This document shows, piece by piece, positions 2,667-57,003 of a stretch of 64,000 bases of DNA. This stretch comes from Anaerolineae bacterium. Lineage in GTDB: Bacteria > Chloroflexota > Anaerolineae > S140-20. Below the pieces are notes generated by a model, which was not told the origin of the DNA, made no database searches, and was given only the letters and a program-made list of their open reading frames with translations. Position 1 is the first letter of the stretch, and each line of letters opens with the position of its first letter. Location: assembly GCA_027021705.1 (NCBI GenBank), contig JALUTT010000171.1:1-64000 (forward strand). Direction: 5' to 3'. The position numbers and the translations under genes are program-made.

Positions 2667-2915
2667 GGCTCTAATACAGCGTTAGCGAAATTCTGATGAG
2701 AATCTAACACAACTATGGTATACTCCAACGTTGACGGTAACCGTTCACCCTCCCGCAGGTTAGGCGCGTTTCCGACGCGAAACCGTGCTTCAAATAGCCC
2801 ATCGGGGCTAAAAGCCCCCTCAACCGGTGGACCTGCGGGAGGGTAGGCTGGCTGAATAGATACCGTTGAAGTGTGTCCGAGAGCGACCCGTGTAGAAGCG
2901 GAGAGGAGCGAGGCG

Positions 2916-12232: not shown

Positions 12233-12697
12233 TCAGGGGCCGGTGGAAGGACCGTAGACGCTGTAACGGGCCTCGATGGCGGCGTAGATCTCGGCGATCG
12301 GCTTGCCCTCGGCGTACATCTGCATCACGTCCCGCGTGATGTCCACGCAGATCCTTCAGTAGGCCGCATGGTACTCGAGGGCGACGCTGCCGTCGGGGTT
12401 GGTCCCGGAGGCGTAGCAGGCGTAGTTGGAGGTATGGCCGCTGTTGACACAGCCGCAGTAGCAGGGGAACTGCCGAAGCAGGTCCGGGTTGGCCAGGGCG
12501 AAGCGGTAGGCCTCCCGTACCTCCGATGGCGCACTCCTCAAATCTGCGGGGAGGTCTGAGAGGGGGGCCATCCGTATCTCGACCCTCCTGCCCTTCTGCC
12601 CCCCGGTTTGGAACAGGAGGAGGGCCAGCAGCAGGATGATCCCTGCCGCGCCGATGAGCCCGACTACGATGATGACAGGACGTTTCCGATTGCGCAT
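12233..12697 (-). CDS. PCYCGC-motif membrane-anchored protein, predicted selenoprotein (UGA 12356-12358 = Sec; 154 aa)
   Basis: PCYCGC motif. Reading through the UGA gives HAAY-U-RIC-VDITRDVMQMYAEGKPIAEIYAAIEARYS...; hairpin CATCACG-CGGGA-CGTGATG follows the UGA. Confidence 0.85.
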
Positions 12698-26637: not shown

Positions 26638-27138
26638 TTAGAGGGGAGTGCGGCGGCGACCGAGGAGCAGTGTGCCTAGGAGGGTGATCCCCGCCATGCC
26701 AGCCCAGAAGAGGAGCAGAAACGGGTTGGGGTGTCTACGGTACAGACGCCGGTAGGTTCGACCGGCCCGGCCTGCCACGTAGCTCTCGGCGGCCAGTTCC
26801 CAGGCCGCCTGGTGGACGAGGAGAGCGGCGGCGAGGCGCACCAGCCGCTTTCCCAGCGGACGCGGCCTCGACGCCGGTCCGTGTCGCCACAGCCAGAGGA
26901 CGTGGGCAACGGCCAGCGGCAGCGTCTGAAGGTGTCCCAGCTCGTGCCAGTAGCTGAGGCGGTATCGCTCCTCCTGGGGTAGCCCACGCCGGATGAAGAG
27001 GTTGACCAGGGGAGGGTGGGGCAGCGGGAATGACCCCACCCTCACCAGATGCCAGTAGTCACCTTCGATCACGATCTCGCCCGGCAGGCCGTACCAGGTG
27101 CGCACCTGGCGGGAGAGTCCTTCCGCGTCCTCACTCAC
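26638..27138 (-). CDS. hypothetical membrane protein with HExxH motif
   Basis: WHELGH plus downstream WELAAE; start overlaps the end of the DsbA gene. Confidence 0.7.
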   Translation of the reverse strand: MSEDAEGLSRQVRTWYGLPGEIVIEGDYWHLVRVGSFPLPHPPLVNLFIRRGLPQEERYRLSYWHELGHLQTLPLAVAHVLWLWRHGPASRPRPLGKRLVRLAAALLVHQAAWELAAESYVAGRAGRTYRRLYRRHPNPFLLLFWAGMAGITLLGTLLLGRRRTPL

Positions 27139-27934
27139 GAGTTGCCTCCAACTCTGCTTCGATCATCTGCTGGAAAGCTTCGAAGGGTTGAGCGCCCACG
27201 AGGGGCTTGCCGTTGATCAGGAAGGTGGGAGTGCCCCTCACGCCCAGGGATCGGGCGATGGACGTCTCCGAACGCACGATGGAAGTGTACCGACCGGAGT
27301 CCAAGCAGGTCTCGAACGCCTCGCGGTCCAACCCCAGCTCGGTGGCGAACTGTTTCAGGTTCTCCCGGCTGAAAGCCCCCTGGTTCTCACCGGCCTGGCG
27401 CTCGAAGAGCAGGTCGTGATAGGCCCAGAAAGCCCCTTGCTCGGCGGCACATTCGGTCGCCTCGGCGGCCCACTGGGACTCCGGCCCCAGGAAGGCGAAG
27501 TGCCAGTAGCCGAAACGGACCTCTCCCGTTTGCACGTAGACCTGGTCAATCTGACGCCCCGCGTCAGCGGCGAATCGCCCGCAGAAGGGTCACTGGAAGT
27601 CGCCAAACTCGATGATGGTCACGGGAGCGTTGGGGTTCCCTTTGAAGTGGCGCACCCGGGCGGTCAGGTCTTCCAACGAGCCTGGCAGGCTCGCCGGGTT
27701 GACGGGTGTGGGGTCGAGGCTGGCCGGCGGAGGATCGGCGTCCTGGGCCGAGGCGGCCGGGGAGCCGAAGAGGGATCGCGGCGTCACCAGCGGGCGTACC
27801 CCGTAGCCGATCAGCACGCCGATCACCAGCCCGACGGCGAGCATGGCCAACGGATTGGTCCAGATCGGGGATGAGGAGGCCGGAGACGGCGCCTCATCCG
27901 ACTGCTGTTGGGGCAGAAACGGCTCTCTCTCCAT
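27131..27934 (-). CDS. DsbA/BdbD-like thioredoxin-fold protein, predicted selenoprotein (UGA 27590-27592 = Sec; 267 aa)
   Basis: two in-frame ORFs joined across the UGA: APVTIIEFGDFQ-U-PFCGRF...GVRGTPTFLING; hairpin CTGACGC-GGG-GCGTCAG downstream. Confidence 0.92.
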
Positions 27935-28982: not shown

Positions 28983-29513
28983 TCAGTCCAGACTCTTCAG
29001 GAAGTCCAACAGGTCTTCTAGGTCTTCGTCGCTCATCGTCCAGCGGGGCATCGGCCATTCCAGCGGTTCTCCCGCCGGGTTGAGCCCCTGGGTGATGGCG
29101 CGTTTGATGGTCTCGTCGGTGTAGGGGGGATGCTCTTCCGCCCCTTCGTCGTGCTCCATCTTCTCGGCGGTCAGGGTCTTGTAGCGGATGTCGGGGGCGA
29201 CGAAGGTTTCCATCATCATCCGCACGGTGCCGCCACGACCATCGGGGCCGTGGCAACTAGCACAGCTCAGGGCGCCCCCACCCATCATCCCCATCCCCAT
29301 GTCCGAGGTGATAGGGGTACCCCGCTGGCTGGTGGCGGTGAAGTAGATCTGCTCACCGTTGGAGCGGAACTGGCGTCCGAAGCCGAATCCCCGCCCGCGC
29401 CAGCCTCCAGCGGTACAGCCGGCCAGGACGAGGACCAGCCCCAGGAGGGCAAGGCCTCGGACGCCGGATCTGGTGTATCGGAAGCGTGGTTGGTTGGGTG
29501 TTTCTGTGTCCAT
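28983..29513 (-). CDS. c-type cytochrome lipoprotein
   Basis: LAGC lipobox, CASCHG.DGRG, distal MPRW, Met/Gly-rich segment. Confidence 0.85.
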   Translation of the reverse strand: MDTETPNQPRFRYTRSGVRGLALLGLVLVLAGCTAGGWRGRGFGFGRQFRSNGEQIYFTATSQRGTPITSDMGMGMMGGGALSCASCHGPDGRGGTVRMMMETFVAPDIRYKTLTAEKMEHDEGAEEHPPYTDETIKRAITQGLNPAGEPLEWPMPRWTMSDEDLEDLLDFLKSLD

Positions 29514-29744
29514 ACTCTGTCCTTTGTGAACTCTGTCGGTTCGGATCCGCCTTCTCCCGCCCCCGGTCGGCGGATGAGGATCCGCCGGGGGCTTGGGGAA
29601 GCGGAGTCCGACGGATCGTGGGTTTCTCCTCTCCTGCTCCCCCCGATGGACAATCTGGCGCAAGAGGAAGCCTGAGGAGGGGGAGAGCGCCGGACCTGTC
29701 CCCCCGCCGCGCCGGATAGCGTGTCCGGCAGGAGGGGATAGCGG

Positions 29745-30035
29745 TCAGACGGGCTCCCGCAGGTATCCCCCGGCCTGCAGCAGCCTGCGAACGTGGTGGC
29801 TGTTGACGCCGAAGCCGATCAGCACCTCGCCGTCAATGACGAGTGTAGGGGTGATGAAGCGACCGGCCAGGCTCTTGAGTTCGTCCATGTAGAGGGGGTT
29901 GGTGGTGACATCCTTCTCGGTGAAGGGGATGTTGTGCCGGGCGAAGAACCTCTTCGCCGCCTGGCAGTCGCCTCACGTGGGCTGGGTGTAGAGGACGACG
30001 CCTCTGGGTCTGCGGTGGAAGAGTCGGCGAAACAT
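29745..30035 (-). CDS. glutaredoxin/NrdH-like protein, predicted selenoprotein (UGA 29973-29975 = Sec; 96 aa); absent from the ORF track
   Basis: MFRRLFHRRPRGVVLYTQPT-U-GDCQAAKRFFARHNIPFTEKDV...ITPTLVIDGEVLIGF; AAGGAG RBS; hairpin GGCGAAGA-GGT-TCTTCGCC. Confidence 0.9.
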
Positions 30036-30121
30036 AGCGTTGCTCCTTGGCAGGGTTTCATCGGTCGGGGTTCGTCCCTGAGGCGATGAATGCCTGCCCC
30101 CCGATGAGGATTTGTGCCCCC

Positions 30122-30186
30122 AGTATACACCAAGGTCGGAAACCCGACCACGGCCATTTGGCCTATTGCTCCCTCGCTGTTTGGCC
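30122..30186 (-). promoter_or_regulatory. promoter with paired boxes (glutaredoxin-cytochrome-DsbA operon)
   Basis: -10 TATACT; GGCCATTTGGCC at 30152 and CGCTGTTTGGCC at 30175. Confidence 0.7.
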
Positions 30187-30261
30187 TGGTGTAGGCAGCG
30201 CCCTTTTGGGAGCTTCGAGCGCCTGTGGTTCGGTCAGAGGTCCCCCATAAAAAAACGGATG

Positions 30262-30479
30262 GCTGTCAACGAATTGGGAAACGGATTAAGCGGATGGGAA
30301 ACCTCTCTCCGTTCGATCCGCTTCCCCAGTCCGTTGACAGCACCCGTTCACAGCATCCGCTGACAGCGGCCTGCCTACTATTGAAATGAAAGTGAAATGA
30401 AAGCTGTCAGCGGATTCGAGAGCCGATTGAGCGGACGGGATCCTCTCCGTTCAACCCGCTCCCCCGATCCGCTGACAGC
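30262..30479. repeat. two copies of a ~80-bp imperfect palindrome (REP/MITE-like)
   Basis: GCTGTCA...TGACAGC units at 30262-30341 and 30403-30479; (TGAAATGAAAG)2 lies between them. Confidence 0.75.
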
Positions 30480-30491
30480 ATCCACTGGCAG

Positions 30492-32591
30492 CTACTCAGC
30501 CTCGGCCGCCGCCGGCCTCGGCACCCCGCAGAACTGGTGGTAGTCAATGAGCTCCGTCACCGTGGGGTTCTCGCCGCAGACGGGGCAGTCGGGCGCGGGG
30601 GGCACCGAGACCTCCATGAACTCGCCGTCGAGGGCGTCGTAGAGGAGCAGCCGCCCGATCAGCGGTTCGCCGATCCCCAGGATGATCTTGATGGCCTCCA
30701 TAGCCTGGAGGCTGCCCATGATGCCGGGCAGGACCCCCAGGACGCCGGCCTCGGCGCAACTGGGCACCAGCCCCGGCGGGGGCGGCTCCGGGAAGAGGCA
30801 GCGGTAGCACGGCCCTCCCCGGGCCGGGTCGAAGACGGTCAACTGCCCCTCGAAGCGGAAGATGCTGGCGTCCACCAGCGGCTTCCCCAGCATCACGCAG
30901 GCGTCGTTCACCAGGTAGCGGGTGGGGAAGTTGTCGGAGCCGTTGATCACCACATCGTAGTCGCGCAGCACCTCGAAGGCGTTGGAGGAGTCCAGCAGCA
31001 GGTGATGGCCGACGACCTCGACATCGGGGTTGATGCTGTGCAGGGTCTCGGCTGCCGACTCCACCTTGGGCCGACCGATGTCCTCGGTCTTGTGGAGGAT
31101 CTGGCGCTGCAGGTTGCTCAGGTCCACCACGTCGTGGTCCACGATGCCGATGGTGCCCACGCCCGCCGCCGCCAGGTAGAAGGCGGCCGGCGACCCCAAG
31201 CCACCCGCGCCGATGATCACGGCCTTGGCCTCCAGGAGCTTGATCTGCCCCGCTTCGCCCACCTCGGGCAGGAGGAAGTGGCGGCTGTAGCGCACCCGCT
31301 GGGTGTCGGTGAGGACCTTGGGGATGACGAAGGGGAAGCCGGCCGACTTCCAAGCCTGGAAGCCGCCGACCAGTGACTCCACCCGCGTGTACCCCATCTG
31401 GCGCAGGGCGAGGGCGCCAAGGGCGGAGCGCACCCCACCGGCGCAGTAGACGACGATGGGCGCATCCCGGTCCGACACCAGCTCCTCGATGCGCAGCTCC
31501 AGGAAGCCGCGCGGGATGAAGTGGGCACCGGGGATGTGGCCCTGCTCCCACTCGTCCCGCTCCCGGATGTCCACCAGGTGAACGGGCTCACCGGCGTCCA
31601 GCCGGCGCTTCAGGGTGTGCACGTCCACCTCGGCGATCTGGCTGCGGGCCAGGGCCACCACCTCGTCGCGGGAGCGGCGCTTGAACTGGCCGTTGTCGGC
31701 GACGACCACCGCCCGTGGGGCGGGGGTGGCAGGCAGGCCGCAGGGGCCGACGGCCCCCTCGCCGGCCGGCACCTGCTCCCGAGCTTGGCCTTCGATGGGC
31801 AGGTCGGTCCGGCGGCTCCACTCAGCCCACGACCCCTCGTAGTTGCGCACCCGAGGGTAGCCCAGCCAGCGCAGGACCAGGTAGGTGTGGGAGGAGCGGG
31901 CACCCGTCTCACAGTAGACGACGATCTCCCGGTCCGGCGTGATCCCCCGTTCCTGGAAGAGGCGGTGCAGCTCCTCGGCGGGCCGGAGGGCGGGTGGTGC
32001 GGTGTCGGCCAGGACACTGTCGTAGGGGAGGTGGACCGCGCCGGGCAGCCGGCCGCTCTCGAACTCGGCCTCCGTCCGCACGTCCAGGAGGACGATGTCG
32101 GGATGGCCCAGGTGGGCGGCGATCCAGTTGGCCGTGGCCAGCTTGCTGCTCTCCGGTTCAGCGGCGTAGAGGGCCGGCTCCGGCGTGACCGTCTCGGTGC
32201 TCACCTCCCCGCCGGCCTCTTCCCAGGCTTCCCAGCCCCCCTCGAGGATGTACACCTTGGCGTGGCCGTAGTAGTCCAGGAGCCAGGCGAACTGGGCGGC
32301 CAGGGGGCCGAAGCCCTCGTCGTAGATGACGACCGGGGTCTCGCGGGTCAGCCCCAGGCGGCCCAGCACCTCCTCGGCGGCCGACTGGCCGACCAGCCGT
32401 CCGGGCACCCCGTTGACGGTGGTGAAGAGTTCCTGGAGGTCCAGGGAGACCGCTCCCGGCACGTGGCCGTAGGGGTAACCCAGTTCCAGGTCCGGTAGGG
32501 TGACGCGGAGGTCCACGATCCGTATCTCCGGGTCCGCCAGGCGGTCCTGCAGCCACGCCGCGTCCACCAGGTGGATGGGCCGCTTGGTCAT
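30492..32591 (-). CDS. triple-rhodanese / MoeB-ThiF (E1-like) fusion protein
   Basis: SseA-like tandem rhodanese (YCETGAR, YEGSWAEW), third rhodanese (YCAGGVRS), then RYSRH, GAGGLGS, SNLQRQ, CYRC, PSCAEAG, CPVC. Confidence 0.92.
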   Translation of the reverse strand: MTKRPIHLVDAAWLQDRLADPEIRIVDLRVTLPDLELGYPYGHVPGAVSLDLQELFTTVNGVPGRLVGQSAAEEVLGRLGLTRETPVVIYDEGFGPLAAQFAWLLDYYGHAKVYILEGGWEAWEEAGGEVSTETVTPEPALYAAEPESSKLATANWIAAHLGHPDIVLLDVRTEAEFESGRLPGAVHLPYDSVLADTAPPALRPAEELHRLFQERGITPDREIVVYCETGARSSHTYLVLRWLGYPRVRNYEGSWAEWSRRTDLPIEGQAREQVPAGEGAVGPCGLPATPAPRAVVVADNGQFKRRSRDEVVALARSQIAEVDVHTLKRRLDAGEPVHLVDIRERDEWEQGHIPGAHFIPRGFLELRIEELVSDRDAPIVVYCAGGVRSALGALALRQMGYTRVESLVGGFQAWKSAGFPFVIPKVLTDTQRVRYSRHFLLPEVGEAGQIKLLEAKAVIIGAGGLGSPAAFYLAAAGVGTIGIVDHDVVDLSNLQRQILHKTEDIGRPKVESAAETLHSINPDVEVVGHHLLLDSSNAFEVLRDYDVVINGSDNFPTRYLVNDACVMLGKPLVDASIFRFEGQLTVFDPARGGPCYRCLFPEPPPPGLVPSCAEAGVLGVLPGIMGSLQAMEAIKIILGIGEPLIGRLLLYDALDGEFMEVSVPPAPDCPVCGENPTVTELIDYHQFCGVPRPAAAEAE

Positions 32592-54824: not shown

Positions 54825-55808
54825 GTGGGCCGGGCGGACATCGGGAGCAAGTACGTGCTGGCCGGCGAGCCGACGGAGTGGGCCCGCTGGCTGCTGGGGG
54901 ACGAGACCATCCGGGTCGAGGAGCGGCTGTCGGGAGAGTTCCAGTTCTTGATGCGCCACAGCGACGAGGTGCTGCGGGCGCGGGGGCAGGAAGGCCCCTT
55001 CGTCCTGGTGGTCGAGGTCCAGTTGCGGGCGGACGAGCGGATGCCCCGGCGGATGCGGGCCTATGCAGCGCTGGCCGAGGAGCGATACGACCTGCCGGCC
55101 TATCCGCTGGTGCTCTACTTGCTGCCGCCGGGAGAGGGGGTGCAACTGCCGGAGCGGTACCATCAGGAGTTTATGGGCTTGACGGCCCGCCAGGACTTTC
55201 GGGTGGTGCGGGTGTGGGAGCTGGAGGCGGAGCGGGTGGTGGCGGCGGGGGTGGTGGGGCTGGTGCCCTTCGTGCCGCTGATGCGGGGGGCGGACGAGGG
55301 GGTGATCCGGCGAGGGGTGGAGGTGTTGCGGGAGCGGGGGGTGGGAGAAGAGGTCGAGGCGGCGCTGGCCTTGTTCGCCAGCTTCGTGATGGAGCCGGAG
55401 CAAGTGCGGCAGATCGTGAGGTGGGATATGGCGGTTCTGAAGGAATCACCCTGGTACAAGCAAATCTTGGAGGAGGGATTGCAGGAGGGGCGGCGGCTGG
55501 GGCTCCAGGAGGGCCTTCAGCAGGGCCTCCAGCAAGGCCTCCAGCAGGGCCTCCAGCAGGGGCTTCAGCAAGGGCTTCAGCAGGGCCTCCGACAAGGGAT
55601 CCTAGAAGGGCAGCGGGAAGCCATCCTGCACCTGCTGCGGGTGCGGTTTGACCCGACGGGGCCGGCCCTGGAGCCCGTCGCCGAGGGGCTGGCCGAGATC
55701 GAGGACGCTACCCTGCTCCAGGACCTGCTGGTGGAAGCGGCGCAGGCGGAGAGTTTGGAGGCCTTCCAGAAAGGGCTCCAACGGCTGTTAGGGGGCTCAT
55801 CGGGGTAG
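54825..55808 (+). CDS. Rpn-family recombination-promoting nuclease/putative transposase, copy 1
   Basis: D...VEVQ PD-(D/E)xK-like core, RMRAY, LKESPWY, (GLQQ)n repeat, LRVRF C-terminal domain. Confidence 0.85.
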   Translation: MGRADIGSKYVLAGEPTEWARWLLGDETIRVEERLSGEFQFLMRHSDEVLRARGQEGPFVLVVEVQLRADERMPRRMRAYAALAEERYDLPAYPLVLYLLPPGEGVQLPERYHQEFMGLTARQDFRVVRVWELEAERVVAAGVVGLVPFVPLMRGADEGVIRRGVEVLRERGVGEEVEAALALFASFVMEPEQVRQIVRWDMAVLKESPWYKQILEEGLQEGRRLGLQEGLQQGLQQGLQQGLQQGLQQGLQQGLRQGILEGQREAILHLLRVRFDPTGPALEPVAEGLAEIEDATLLQDLLVEAAQAESLEAFQKGLQRLLGGSSG

Positions 55809-56019: not shown

Positions 56020-57003
56020 GTGGGCCGGGCGGACATCGGGGGCAAGTACGTGCTGGCCGGCGAGCCGACGGAGTGGGCCCGCTGGCTGCTGGGGGACGAG
56101 ACCATCCGGGTCGAGGAGCGGCTGTCGGGAGAGTTCCAGTTCTTGATGCGCCACAGCGACGAGGTGCTGCGGGCGCGGGGGCAGGAAGGCCCCTTCGTCC
56201 TGGTGGTCGAGGTCCAGTTGCGGGCGGACGAGCGGATGCCCCGGCGGATGCGGGCCTATGCAGCGCTGGCCGAGGAGCGATACGACCTGCCGGCCTATCC
56301 GCTGGTGCTCTACTTGCTGCCGCCGGGAGAGGGGGTGCAACTGCCGGAGCGGTACCATCAGGAGTTTATGGGCTTGACGGCCCGCCAGGACTTTCGGGTG
56401 GTGCGGGTGTGGGAGCTGGAGGCGGAGCGGGTGGTGGCGGCGGGGGTGGTGGGGCTGGTGCCCTTCGTGCCGCTGATGCGGGGGGCGGACGAGGGGGTGA
56501 TCCGGCGAGGGGTGGAGGTGTTGCGGGAGCGGGGGGTGGGAGAAGAGGTCGAGGCGGCGCTGGCCTTGTTCGCCAGCTTCGTGATGGAGCCGGAGCAAGT
56601 GCGGCAGATCGTGAGGTGGGATATGGCGGTTCTGAAGGAATCACCCTGGTACAAGCAAATCTTGGAGGAGGGATTGCAGGAGGGGCGGCGGCTGGGGCTC
56701 CAGGAGGGCCTTCAGCAGGGCCTCCAGCAAGGCCTCCAGCAGGGCCTCCAGCAGGGGCTTCAGCAAGGGCTTCAGCAGGGCCTCCGACAAGGGATCCTAG
56801 AAGGGCAGCGGGAAGCCATCCTGCACCTGCTGCGGGTGCGGTTTGACCCGACGGGGCCGGCCCTGGAGCCCGTCGCCGAAGGGCTGGCCGAGATCGAGGA
56901 CGCTACCCTGCTCCAGGACCTGCTGGTGGAAGCGGCGCAGGCCGAGAGCCTGGAGACTTTTCAGAAAGGGCTCCAACGGCTGTTGGGGGCCTCATCGGGG
57001 TAG
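56020..57003 (+). CDS. Rpn-family recombination-promoting nuclease/putative transposase, copy 2
   Basis: differs from copy 1 at three amino acids. Confidence 0.85.
   Translation: MGRADIGGKYVLAGEPTEWARWLLGDETIRVEERLSGEFQFLMRHSDEVLRARGQEGPFVLVVEVQLRADERMPRRMRAYAALAEERYDLPAYPLVLYLLPPGEGVQLPERYHQEFMGLTARQDFRVVRVWELEAERVVAAGVVGLVPFVPLMRGADEGVIRRGVEVLRERGVGEEVEAALALFASFVMEPEQVRQIVRWDMAVLKESPWYKQILEEGLQEGRRLGLQEGLQQGLQQGLQQGLQQGLQQGLQQGLRQGILEGQREAILHLLRVRFDPTGPALEPVAEGLAEIEDATLLQDLLVEAAQAESLETFQKGLQRLLGASSG

What the first reader, a model, noticed from the sequence alone, without database searches (positions are those of the whole stretch)
29745..30035. Hidden glutaredoxin-like selenoprotein missing from the ORF track
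Seen: RBS + ATG, VVLYTQPT-UGA-GDC, intact Grx fold to TPTLVIDG...GF; 8-bp stem with GGT loop 22 nt after the UGA (29940-29958). Three independent UGA-x-x-Cys sites, each with a GG-loop hairpin at similar distance, are hard to explain as chance nonsense mutations and suggest a lineage SECIS consensus.
Basis: partly seen in the sequence, partly recalled or inferred. Interest (0 to 1): 0.72.

Follow-up and report, generated by a model that had tools for sequence, protein, structure and literature searches.

The report
Selenocysteine glutaredoxin in copper-export island
The internal "stop" codon in this small gene almost certainly encodes selenocysteine, making it an ordinary glutaredoxin-like selenoprotein of a known kind, and it belongs to a subfamily that gene callers cut short and that often sits next to copper-export pumps, which it likely serves.

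Summary
Confirmed, on the minus strand (30035-29745). The gene has an RBS, 96 codons, an in-frame UGA at the first active-site position (U21-G-D-C) and an 8-bp GGU-loop hairpin 22 nt downstream. The genome has selA, selB, selD and tRNA-Sec, and uses UGA as its main stop. All 32 of the closest matches in 401 same-class genomes keep the UGA. The hairpin is 95.5% paired across 35 sequences, with synonymous compensatory changes. Cys homologues exist. The fold is Grx/NrdH-like, closest to BC3987 and clostridial Sec-Grx1. All three UGA-x-x-Cys proteins in the window resemble catalogued selenoprotein families, and the hairpins fit the published bacterial SECIS model, so no lineage-specific SECIS is needed. 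New detail: no NCBIfam model reaches its cut-off, and public entries are truncated (29 of 31) or carry Trp (2 of 31). Members with a basic N-terminal extension lie within 8 kb of a P1B heavy-metal ATPase in 12 of 21 loci (background about 2%), and 7 of 33 loci have a tandem second Sec-Grx. A role in copper handling is inferred, not shown. The scan's index holds no look-alike of this protein, though it notes other selenoproteins in this genome.

The parts
29745..30035 (-). Gene for a 96-residue glutaredoxin/NrdH-like selenoprotein (U21-G-D-C; P63, G74, F75)
30043..30048 (-). Shine-Dalgarno-like AAGGAG, 7 nt before the ATG
   Evidence: relatives start at the equivalent place
30003..30035 (-). 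Basic, likely amphipathic N-terminal extension (residues 1-11)
   Evidence: hydrophobic moment 0.65; AF2 does not model it confidently (residues 1-10 mean pLDDT 56, no helix called)
29973..29975 (-). In-frame UGA, predicted selenocysteine 21
   Evidence: 32 of 32 close matches keep TGA here; Cys in homologues
29964..29966 (-). Cys24, predicted resolving cysteine
   Evidence: invariant in alignment A1
29940..29958 (-). SECIS hairpin, 8-bp stem and GGU loop, encoded by Ala-Lys-Arg-Phe-Phe-Ala codons
24258..26495 (-). P1B heavy-metal ATPase with CPH in TM6 (copper type, assignment recalled), 3.25 kb downstream on the same strand
27131..27934 (-). Second selenoprotein gene: DsbA/DsbG-like lipoprotein, UGA at 27592-27590 (U-P-F-C), hairpin at 27567-27551
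   Evidence: (NF041057, 170.9 bits vs cut-off 190)
12233..12697 (-). Third selenoprotein gene: CYCXC/PCYCGC family, UGA at 12358-12356 (U-R-I-C), hairpin at 12341-12323
   Evidence: NF041379, 67 bits vs cut-off 90; PF13798, 81 vs 25
28983..29513 (-). Cytochrome c lipoprotein, the next gene; recurrent neighbour of the subfamily
26638..27138 (-). Unannotated membrane protein (HELGH motif); recurrent neighbour of the subfamily
   Evidence: no Pfam or NCBIfam hit

Best explanation
This is an intact minus-strand gene whose in-frame UGA is almost certainly read as selenocysteine through the hairpin 22 nt downstream, giving a small glutaredoxin/NrdH-fold U-x-x-C oxidoreductase that likely keeps the cysteine sites of a neighbouring copper-export system reduced. 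Shown here: the frame, the RBS, the conserved UGA and hairpin, selABCD in the genome, the fold, and the recurring heavy-metal-ATPase neighbourhood. Following from established knowledge: SelB bound to Sec-tRNA recognises the hairpin loop and inserts Sec; Sec21 is the nucleophile and Cys24 resolves the mixed selenyl-sulfide. Inferred: thioredoxin reductase rather than glutathione regenerates it, the basic N-terminal tail holds it at the membrane, and its substrates are CxxC metal-binding domains of CopA/CopB-type pumps or other thiol proteins of the island. My odds are about 0.97 for the selenoprotein and about 0.55 for the whole statement including the copper-island role.
For: Sec machinery: tRNA-Sec, selA 566 bits, selB above cut-off, and selD 376 bits with its own in-frame TGA. 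TGA ends 559 of 1051 long genes, and the frame after it is no more coding than after TAA or TAG (5.4% vs 7.1% and 5.2%). All 32 matches at E<1e-24 in 401 class genomes (30 genomes including this one) have TGA at the site. Among the top 150 representatives, 26 have Cys there in C-x-D-C. Hairpin across 35 distinct sequences: 95.5% of cells paired, 7 double-sided changes, 0 of 500 shuffles as high, slid controls 42-63%; the swaps are synonymous (GCG/TTC to GCA/TTT). The loop codon is AGG or AGT in 32 of 35 sequences, although these are 4.3% of Arg and 4.5% of Ser codons in this genome. In four metagenome runs, diverged relatives align mainly over the UGA and hairpin, with no listed change at the UGA or in the hairpin. 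Fold: pLDDT 86; best structural matches are BC3987 (rmsd 1.6) and clostridial cGrx1 (rmsd 1.2). Reductant: gshB, gshF and bshC not found, mshC only below cut-off, TrxR found. Context: a P1B ATPase lies within the fetched flank (at most 8 kb) in 12 of 21 extension-bearing loci, 1 of 11 without the extension and 0 of 6 YruB-type Cys controls; 2.3% of this genome lies that close to such a pump. Precedent: human Grx1 binds Cu(I) and passes it to ATP7B metal-binding domains (PMC7057996, abstract).
Against: No selenium incorporation, expression or activity was measured. Sec machinery is common in the class (selA in 347 of 401), so co-occurrence adds little; selB was not found in 3 of the 29 other carrier genomes (79-89% complete). 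One relative (L127) has a stop 26 codons after the UGA. The copper link rests on neighbourhood only: related genomes are not independent, 9 of 21 extension-bearing loci show no pump (several contigs are short, but L137 has full flanks), and one pump has an SPC rather than a CPC/CPH motif (L145). Only 1 of 11 members without the extension has a pump. AF2 does not support a helix for the N-terminal tail. The closest studied Sec-Grx is described as glutathione-reduced (PMC7642778, passage), and the genome is 95% complete, so the missing gsh genes are not proof.
Confidence: 0.55

Rival explanations
1. It is a selenoprotein, but a general-purpose disulfide reductase that travels in a mobile stress or metal island without a dedicated copper partner; locally it might serve the sulfur/selenium-carrier genes upstream (YeeE-TusA-rhodanese/MoeB).
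For: Members without the extension sit in varied contexts. The island also holds DsbA-like, TlpA-like and rhodanese genes. The genes directly upstream encode ThiS-YeeE, TusA and a rhodanese-ThiF fusion.
Against: No YeeE or TusA homologue was found near the gene in any of the 48 loci tested, which included the controls. CopA is the very next gene in several relatives (570-750 bp from the UGA in L138-L141 and L144).
Confidence: 0.27
2. It is a Cu(I)-binding chaperone or buffer rather than a redox catalyst: Sec21 and Cys24 ligate copper and hand it to the pump.
For: Copper-pump neighbourhood. Human Grx1 has this activity (PMC7057996, abstract). The review suggests that Sec may act as a metal ligand in related UXX-star proteins (PMC13188914, passage).
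Against: The catalytic signature of NrdH/Cp9/BC3987 redoxins is complete: Thr at -4, the Pro and Gly-Phe (PMC3720550, passages). Most neighbouring CopA proteins carry their own HMA domains.
Confidence: 0.15
3. The UGA is a nonsense mutation or assembly error (pseudogene), or UGA is read as Trp genome-wide, as two public entries imply.
For: Two of 31 database homologues show Trp at the site and 29 of 31 start after it.
Against: The UGA is kept in 32 of 32 close matches down to about 44% identity and in contigs from other runs. UGA is the commonest stop in the genome. The hairpin shows covariation.
Confidence: 0.02

Closest known systems
Selenoprotein glutaredoxin (PF00462, UxxC; experimentally verified family in PMC13188914 Table 1), e.g. 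Clostridium/Alkaliphilus oremlandii cGrx1 (PDB 7C10)
   Same: Same fold (rmsd 1.2, 35% identity), Sec at the first active-site position, resolving Cys three residues on.
   Different: The motif is U-G/A-D-C rather than U-P-x-C. It has a basic N-terminal extension. cGrx1's proposed substrate is Sec-MsrA (PMC7642778), but no MsrA was found in this genome, nor glutathione synthetase.
Bacillus cereus BC3987 and the Cp9/YruB/NrdH redoxins (PDB 3ZIJ)
   Same: Best sequence and structure match. Shares [IV]-x-[ILV]-[YF]-[ST], Thr at -4, Thr-Pro, and Gly-Phe.
   Different: BC3987 is a Cys protein with C-P-P-C. YruB (62.8 vs 88.55 bits) and NrdH (43 vs 85.75) cut-offs are not reached, and there is no nrd operon nearby.
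NCBIfam Uxx-star glutaredoxin-like (seleno)proteins (NF041212, NF041211, NF041114)
   Same: Near-threshold score to NF041212 (61 vs 66 bits, with C for U).
   Different: Below all cut-offs. The C-terminal U-x-x-stop that I recall as defining the name is absent: 0 of 23 TGA-ending members have a stop three codons on.
Bacterial SECIS consensus model (bSECISearch, as given in PMC13188914 Fig. 2)
   Same: All four criteria are met: loop 3 nt, stem 8 bp, G at loop position 1, spacing 22 nt, -11.0 kcal/mol.
   Different: No difference found.
Human Grx1 acting on ATP7B metal-binding domains (PMC7057996)
   Same: A possible functional analogy: a Grx-fold protein working with a P1B copper pump.
   Different: Eukaryotic, Cys-based and glutathione-linked. 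Here the link is only genomic neighbourhood.

Membership tests
Bacterial selenoprotein | In-frame UGA aligned with a catalytic Cys of homologues, in an otherwise intact frame | tested here: met
Bacterial selenoprotein | selA, selB, selC and selD in the genome | tested here: met
Bacterial selenoprotein | UGA conserved in relatives | tested here: met
   32 of 32 matches at E<1e-24
Bacterial selenoprotein | Selenium actually incorporated | not testable with these tools
   needs proteomics or 75Se labelling
Bacterial SECIS (published consensus) | 3-9 nt loop, 4-16 bp stem, G in the first two loop positions, 16-37 nt spacing, MFE at or below -7.5 | tested here: met
   3 nt, 8 bp, GGU, 22 nt, -11.0 kcal/mol; criteria; covariation
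   In 12 hand-picked sites of this genome the stems differ, spacing runs 17-33 nt and loops are (N)G[G/U]N(N), which is the published pattern. The finder itself required a loop G.
Glutaredoxin domain PF00462 | Score above the gathering threshold; Trx/Grx fold | tested here: met
   61.5 vs 22.9 bits
Classical glutathione-dependent glutaredoxin | C-P-Y-C-like motif and reduction by glutathione | tested here: inconclusive
   The motif is U-G-D-C; GRX_bact scores 32.5 vs 90; gshB and gshF not found in a 95% complete genome; activity not testable
Uxx-star family NF041212 | Score at or above the curated cut-off | tested here: not met
   61 vs 66 bits
Uxx-star family NF041212 | C-terminal U-x-x-stop (definition recalled; the source paper was not held) | tested here: not met
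   0 of 23 TGA-ending members among 36 examined
YruB (TIGR02196) / NrdH (TIGR02194) | Curated cut-offs; for NrdH, C-[IMV]-Q-C and a class Ib RNR operon | tested here: not met
   62.8 vs 88.55 and 43 vs 85.75 bits; motif and neighbours differ
NrdH/Cp9/BC3987 redoxin group | [IV]-x-[ILV]-[YF]-[ST], conserved Pro, Gly-Phe | tested here: met
   V13-V-L-Y-T17, P63, G74, F75

The most novel reading that the evidence does not exclude
An unmodelled Anaerolineae subfamily of membrane-tethered selenocysteine glutaredoxins (U-x-D-C with a basic N-terminal tail), often paired in tandem with a second Sec-Grx (U-x-F-C), is a dedicated partner of CopA/CopB copper pumps. It would be a bacterial, selenium-based, glutathione-independent counterpart of the human Grx1-ATP7 link.
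Probability: 0.3. Interest if true: 0.55.

Novelty: new member of a known kind. Interest (0 to 1): 0.27.

Why it matters
As a selenoprotein it is ordinary: Sec-glutaredoxins and this SECIS type are published. Its practical value is annotation, because the subfamily is truncated or given Trp in all 31 close database entries found, and no NCBIfam model reaches cut-off. If the copper link holds, it would give a bacterial Sec-Grx a defined, testable substrate class and tie selenium use to copper export in Chloroflexota. Four-term full-text search for selenoprotein, Anaerolineae, copper and glutaredoxin returned no paper, but the most relevant paper (Haft and Tolstoy 2025) could not be read.

Tried and rejected
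Plus-strand reading of the given coordinates: not the gene. Genome-wide UGA=Trp or Gly recoding: rejected. Read-through of the terminal TGA into the in-frame cytochrome c gene: the 77-codon linker scores as non-coding (-25), the hairpin after it has no loop G, and 13 of 36 relatives end in TAG or TAA. Uxx-star membership: not met. Sec-MsrA as partner: no MsrA found. Link to YeeE/TusA: not conserved. Rfam at gathering threshold: nothing in the window. Promoter/terminator scan of 29400-30600: none. Phylum-wide draw: 0 of 400 other genomes at E<=1e-22, so the subfamily was not found outside the class sample. No RNA holder listed, which says nothing about expression. The protein tree was too poorly resolved to count origins of Sec or of the pump linkage. 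My first gene-calling script was wrong and was redone. My genome-wide UGA screen is incomplete: its filters dropped this very gene from the printed lists, so I give no selenoproteome size. Haft and Tolstoy 2025 and Kim et al. 2011 were not held. No covariance model was built, because the three stems share no sequence. No complex prediction was run.

Full report
Observation. The given interval read on the plus strand is not a gene. On the minus strand it is a 96-codon frame from ATG 30035 to TGA 29747-29745, with one in-frame TGA at codon 21 (29975-29973) in the context Y-T-Q-P-T-U-G-D-C. AAGGAG lies 7 nt upstream. With a hexamer model trained on this genome's long genes, the part after the UGA scores +59 in this frame and -168 to +21 in the other five; the short part before it scores +1. 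It is more stable than 99.88% of 10,000 synonymous recodings, and z = -2.31 against shuffles. Contigs from two runs of another study cover the whole stretch without a change at the UGA or in the hairpin, so it is not an assembly error; the first run may be the source of this DNA. The holding runs are labelled hydrothermal vent metagenomes.

Decoding. The genome (5.19 Mb, 95% complete) has tRNA-Sec, selA, selB and selD, the last with its own in-frame TGA. TGA is the commonest stop (559 of 1051 long genes) and is not followed by coding sequence more often than the other stops, so there is no global recoding. Named close relatives are Anaerolineae/Chloroflexota. A profile of ten relatives (A1) searched over 401 genomes of the class gave 32 matches at E<1e-24 in 30 genomes including this one. 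All have TGA at the same codon: 30 checked and the other 2. One of them (L127) has a further stop 26 codons later. Most weaker matches are Cys proteins, and 26 of the top 150 representatives carry C-x-D-C. selB was found in 26 of the 29 other carrier genomes, the misses being 79-89% complete. selA is in 347 of 401 class genomes (the tally includes one unpublished genome, G345), so co-occurrence is weak evidence.

SECIS. Across 35 distinct sequences the 7-bp core is paired in 95.5% of cells, with 7 double-sided changes. No shuffle of 500 reached that, and slid controls gave 42-63%. Only 2 pairs covary and the sequences are related, so this is supportive rather than a probability. The swaps are synonymous on both arms, and the loop codon is AGG or AGT in 32 of 35, codons that make up 4.3% of Arg and 4.5% of Ser codons here. 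The two other sites in the window are a DsbA/DsbG-like lipoprotein (27592; NF041057, 170.9 vs 190 bits) and a CYCXC protein (12358; NF041379, 67 vs 90; PF13798 above threshold). Both families, and Sec-Grx, are in Table 1 of PMC13188914 (section 7, parts 1-2 read). I picked 12 likely Sec sites in the genome by eye, with family labels from recalled motifs and earlier scan notes, partly from a hairpin-filtered list, so the set is biased. Nine of the 12 have a strict hairpin, against 26 of 1132 terminal TGAs and 26 of 1500 Cys codons. But spacing runs 17-33 nt, the stems share no sequence, and the loops are the published N(0-1)G[G|U]N pattern (PMC13188914, passages). This is the generic bacterial SECIS, not a lineage consensus.

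Protein. Pfam Glutaredoxin scores 61.5 vs 22.9 bits. No NCBIfam model reaches cut-off; the best are YruB (62.8 vs 88.55) and Uxx-star (61 vs 66). AF2 gives a Grx fold (pLDDT 86). The best solved matches by sequence and structure are B. cereus BC3987 and C. oremlandii cGrx1, a native selenoprotein (PMC7642778, passages). The signature shared by BC3987, Cp9/YruB and NrdH (PMC3720550, passages) is complete, including the Thr four residues before the nucleophile. gshB, fused gshF and bshC were not found, mshC only below cut-off, and TrxR is present, so TrxR is the likely reductant (inference). No MsrA was found. Of 31 database homologues, 29 lack the active site and 2 have Trp there.

Context. In the window the gene lies in a minus-strand block with two cytochromes c, the Sec-DsbA, an unannotated membrane protein and a P1B ATPase with CPH in TM6 3.25 kb downstream. 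Upstream are rhodanese-ThiF, TusA, ThiS-YeeE, TlpA, rhodanese, PspA, DUF302 and SHOCT genes. I examined up to 8 kb each side for 33 subfamily loci: 30 from G-handle genomes and 3 named contigs; G247 was not refetched. I grouped them by the N-terminus. L145 was assigned because the script chose an internal start, L153's non-basic tail was counted as without, and L154 was left out as cut off. A P1B ATPase lies in the flank of 12 of 21 with the basic extension (12 genomes: 7 coded families plus two named contigs), 1 of 11 without, and 0 of 6 YruB-type Cys controls. Background in this genome is 2.3%. Most of these pumps have CPC in TM6 and HMA domains (copper type, recalled assignment); one has SPC. 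Four more extension-bearing loci share the cytochrome c or the membrane protein. Three metagenome loci and G247 have an HMA-bearing gene right downstream. Seven of the 33 loci carry a second Sec-Grx (U-x-F-C) with its own hairpin directly upstream; this genome's copy does not. YeeE and TusA were not found beside any relative. Kin are not independent and the tree was unresolved, so the linkage is a lead and not a tested association.

Mechanism. Shown: the gene, the conserved UGA and hairpin, the machinery, the fold and the neighbourhood. From established knowledge: SelB-mediated Sec insertion and U-x-x-C exchange chemistry. Inferred: TrxR as reductant, membrane tethering by the tail (moment 0.65; not supported by AF2) and pump metal-binding domains as substrates, by analogy with human Grx1 and ATP7B (PMC7057996, abstract; PMC8475189, passages). 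The rivals are a general reductase carried in a stress island, a Cu(I) chaperone, and a pseudogene or Trp reading, the last effectively excluded.

Novelty. It is a new member of a known kind. Searches for a prior description found the family-level listings but nothing on this subfamily or its copper context. Haft and Tolstoy 2025 and Kim et al. 2011 were not held; what I say of the Uxx-star definition is recalled. For BSepDB (PMC13326102) I saw passages only, and its supplement may list these genes. The scan's index shows no look-alike by sequence or words. Interest 0.27.

Noticed in passing
L144, L145, L146, L147, L148, L150, L155 (adjacent); L138 (about 4 kb away): Tandem pair of selenoprotein glutaredoxins: a U-[ML]-F-C type directly upstream of the U-x-D-C type, each with a hairpin at the same offset from its UGA. 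The U-x-F-C type also occurs alone (L167-L169), once beside CopA.
   Followed up: partly
window 2736-2863; about 200 BLAST matches across the genome: A dispersed repeat of about 125 bp, mostly 85-95% identical among the matches printed, seen just upstream of several genes. It may be a MITE or REP-like element or a structured RNA; there is no Rfam hit in the window.
   Followed up: partly
window 26638-27138 (-): Membrane protein with a HELGH motif and no Pfam or NCBIfam hit; it recurs in the same islands in 6 of 33 related loci.
   Followed up: partly
window 29513-29744 (-): The cytochrome c gene is in frame with the Grx stop codon with no stop in between; the linker scores as non-coding, so this is likely coincidence.
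   Followed up: yes
G000:C5:28772-51442: A second metal island in this genome, with three P1B ATPases and likely Sec codons in a rhodanese-like protein (46562) and a DsbA-like protein (51442).
   Followed up: no
G000:C152:54948 (+): In-frame TGA in an HMA-like motif (M-T-U-S-G-C) with a hairpin: a candidate Sec metal-binding domain.
   Followed up: no
L032 (G052) versus L029 (G004): Near-identical Grx-PDZ-like proteins differ as U-G-Y-C versus C-G-Y-C within one genus, and the Sec form has the same hairpin: a recent Cys/Sec switch.
   Followed up: no
window 54825-55808 and 56020-57003 (+): Two near-identical tandem ORFs of 327 codons.
   Followed up: no
L026/L131 and L135: Subfamily members with a long C-terminal fused region (about 225 codons after the UGA).
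   Followed up: no
class-wide: selA is found in 347 of 401 genomes of this class (likely Anaerolineae), so Sec use is very widespread there.
   Followed up: no
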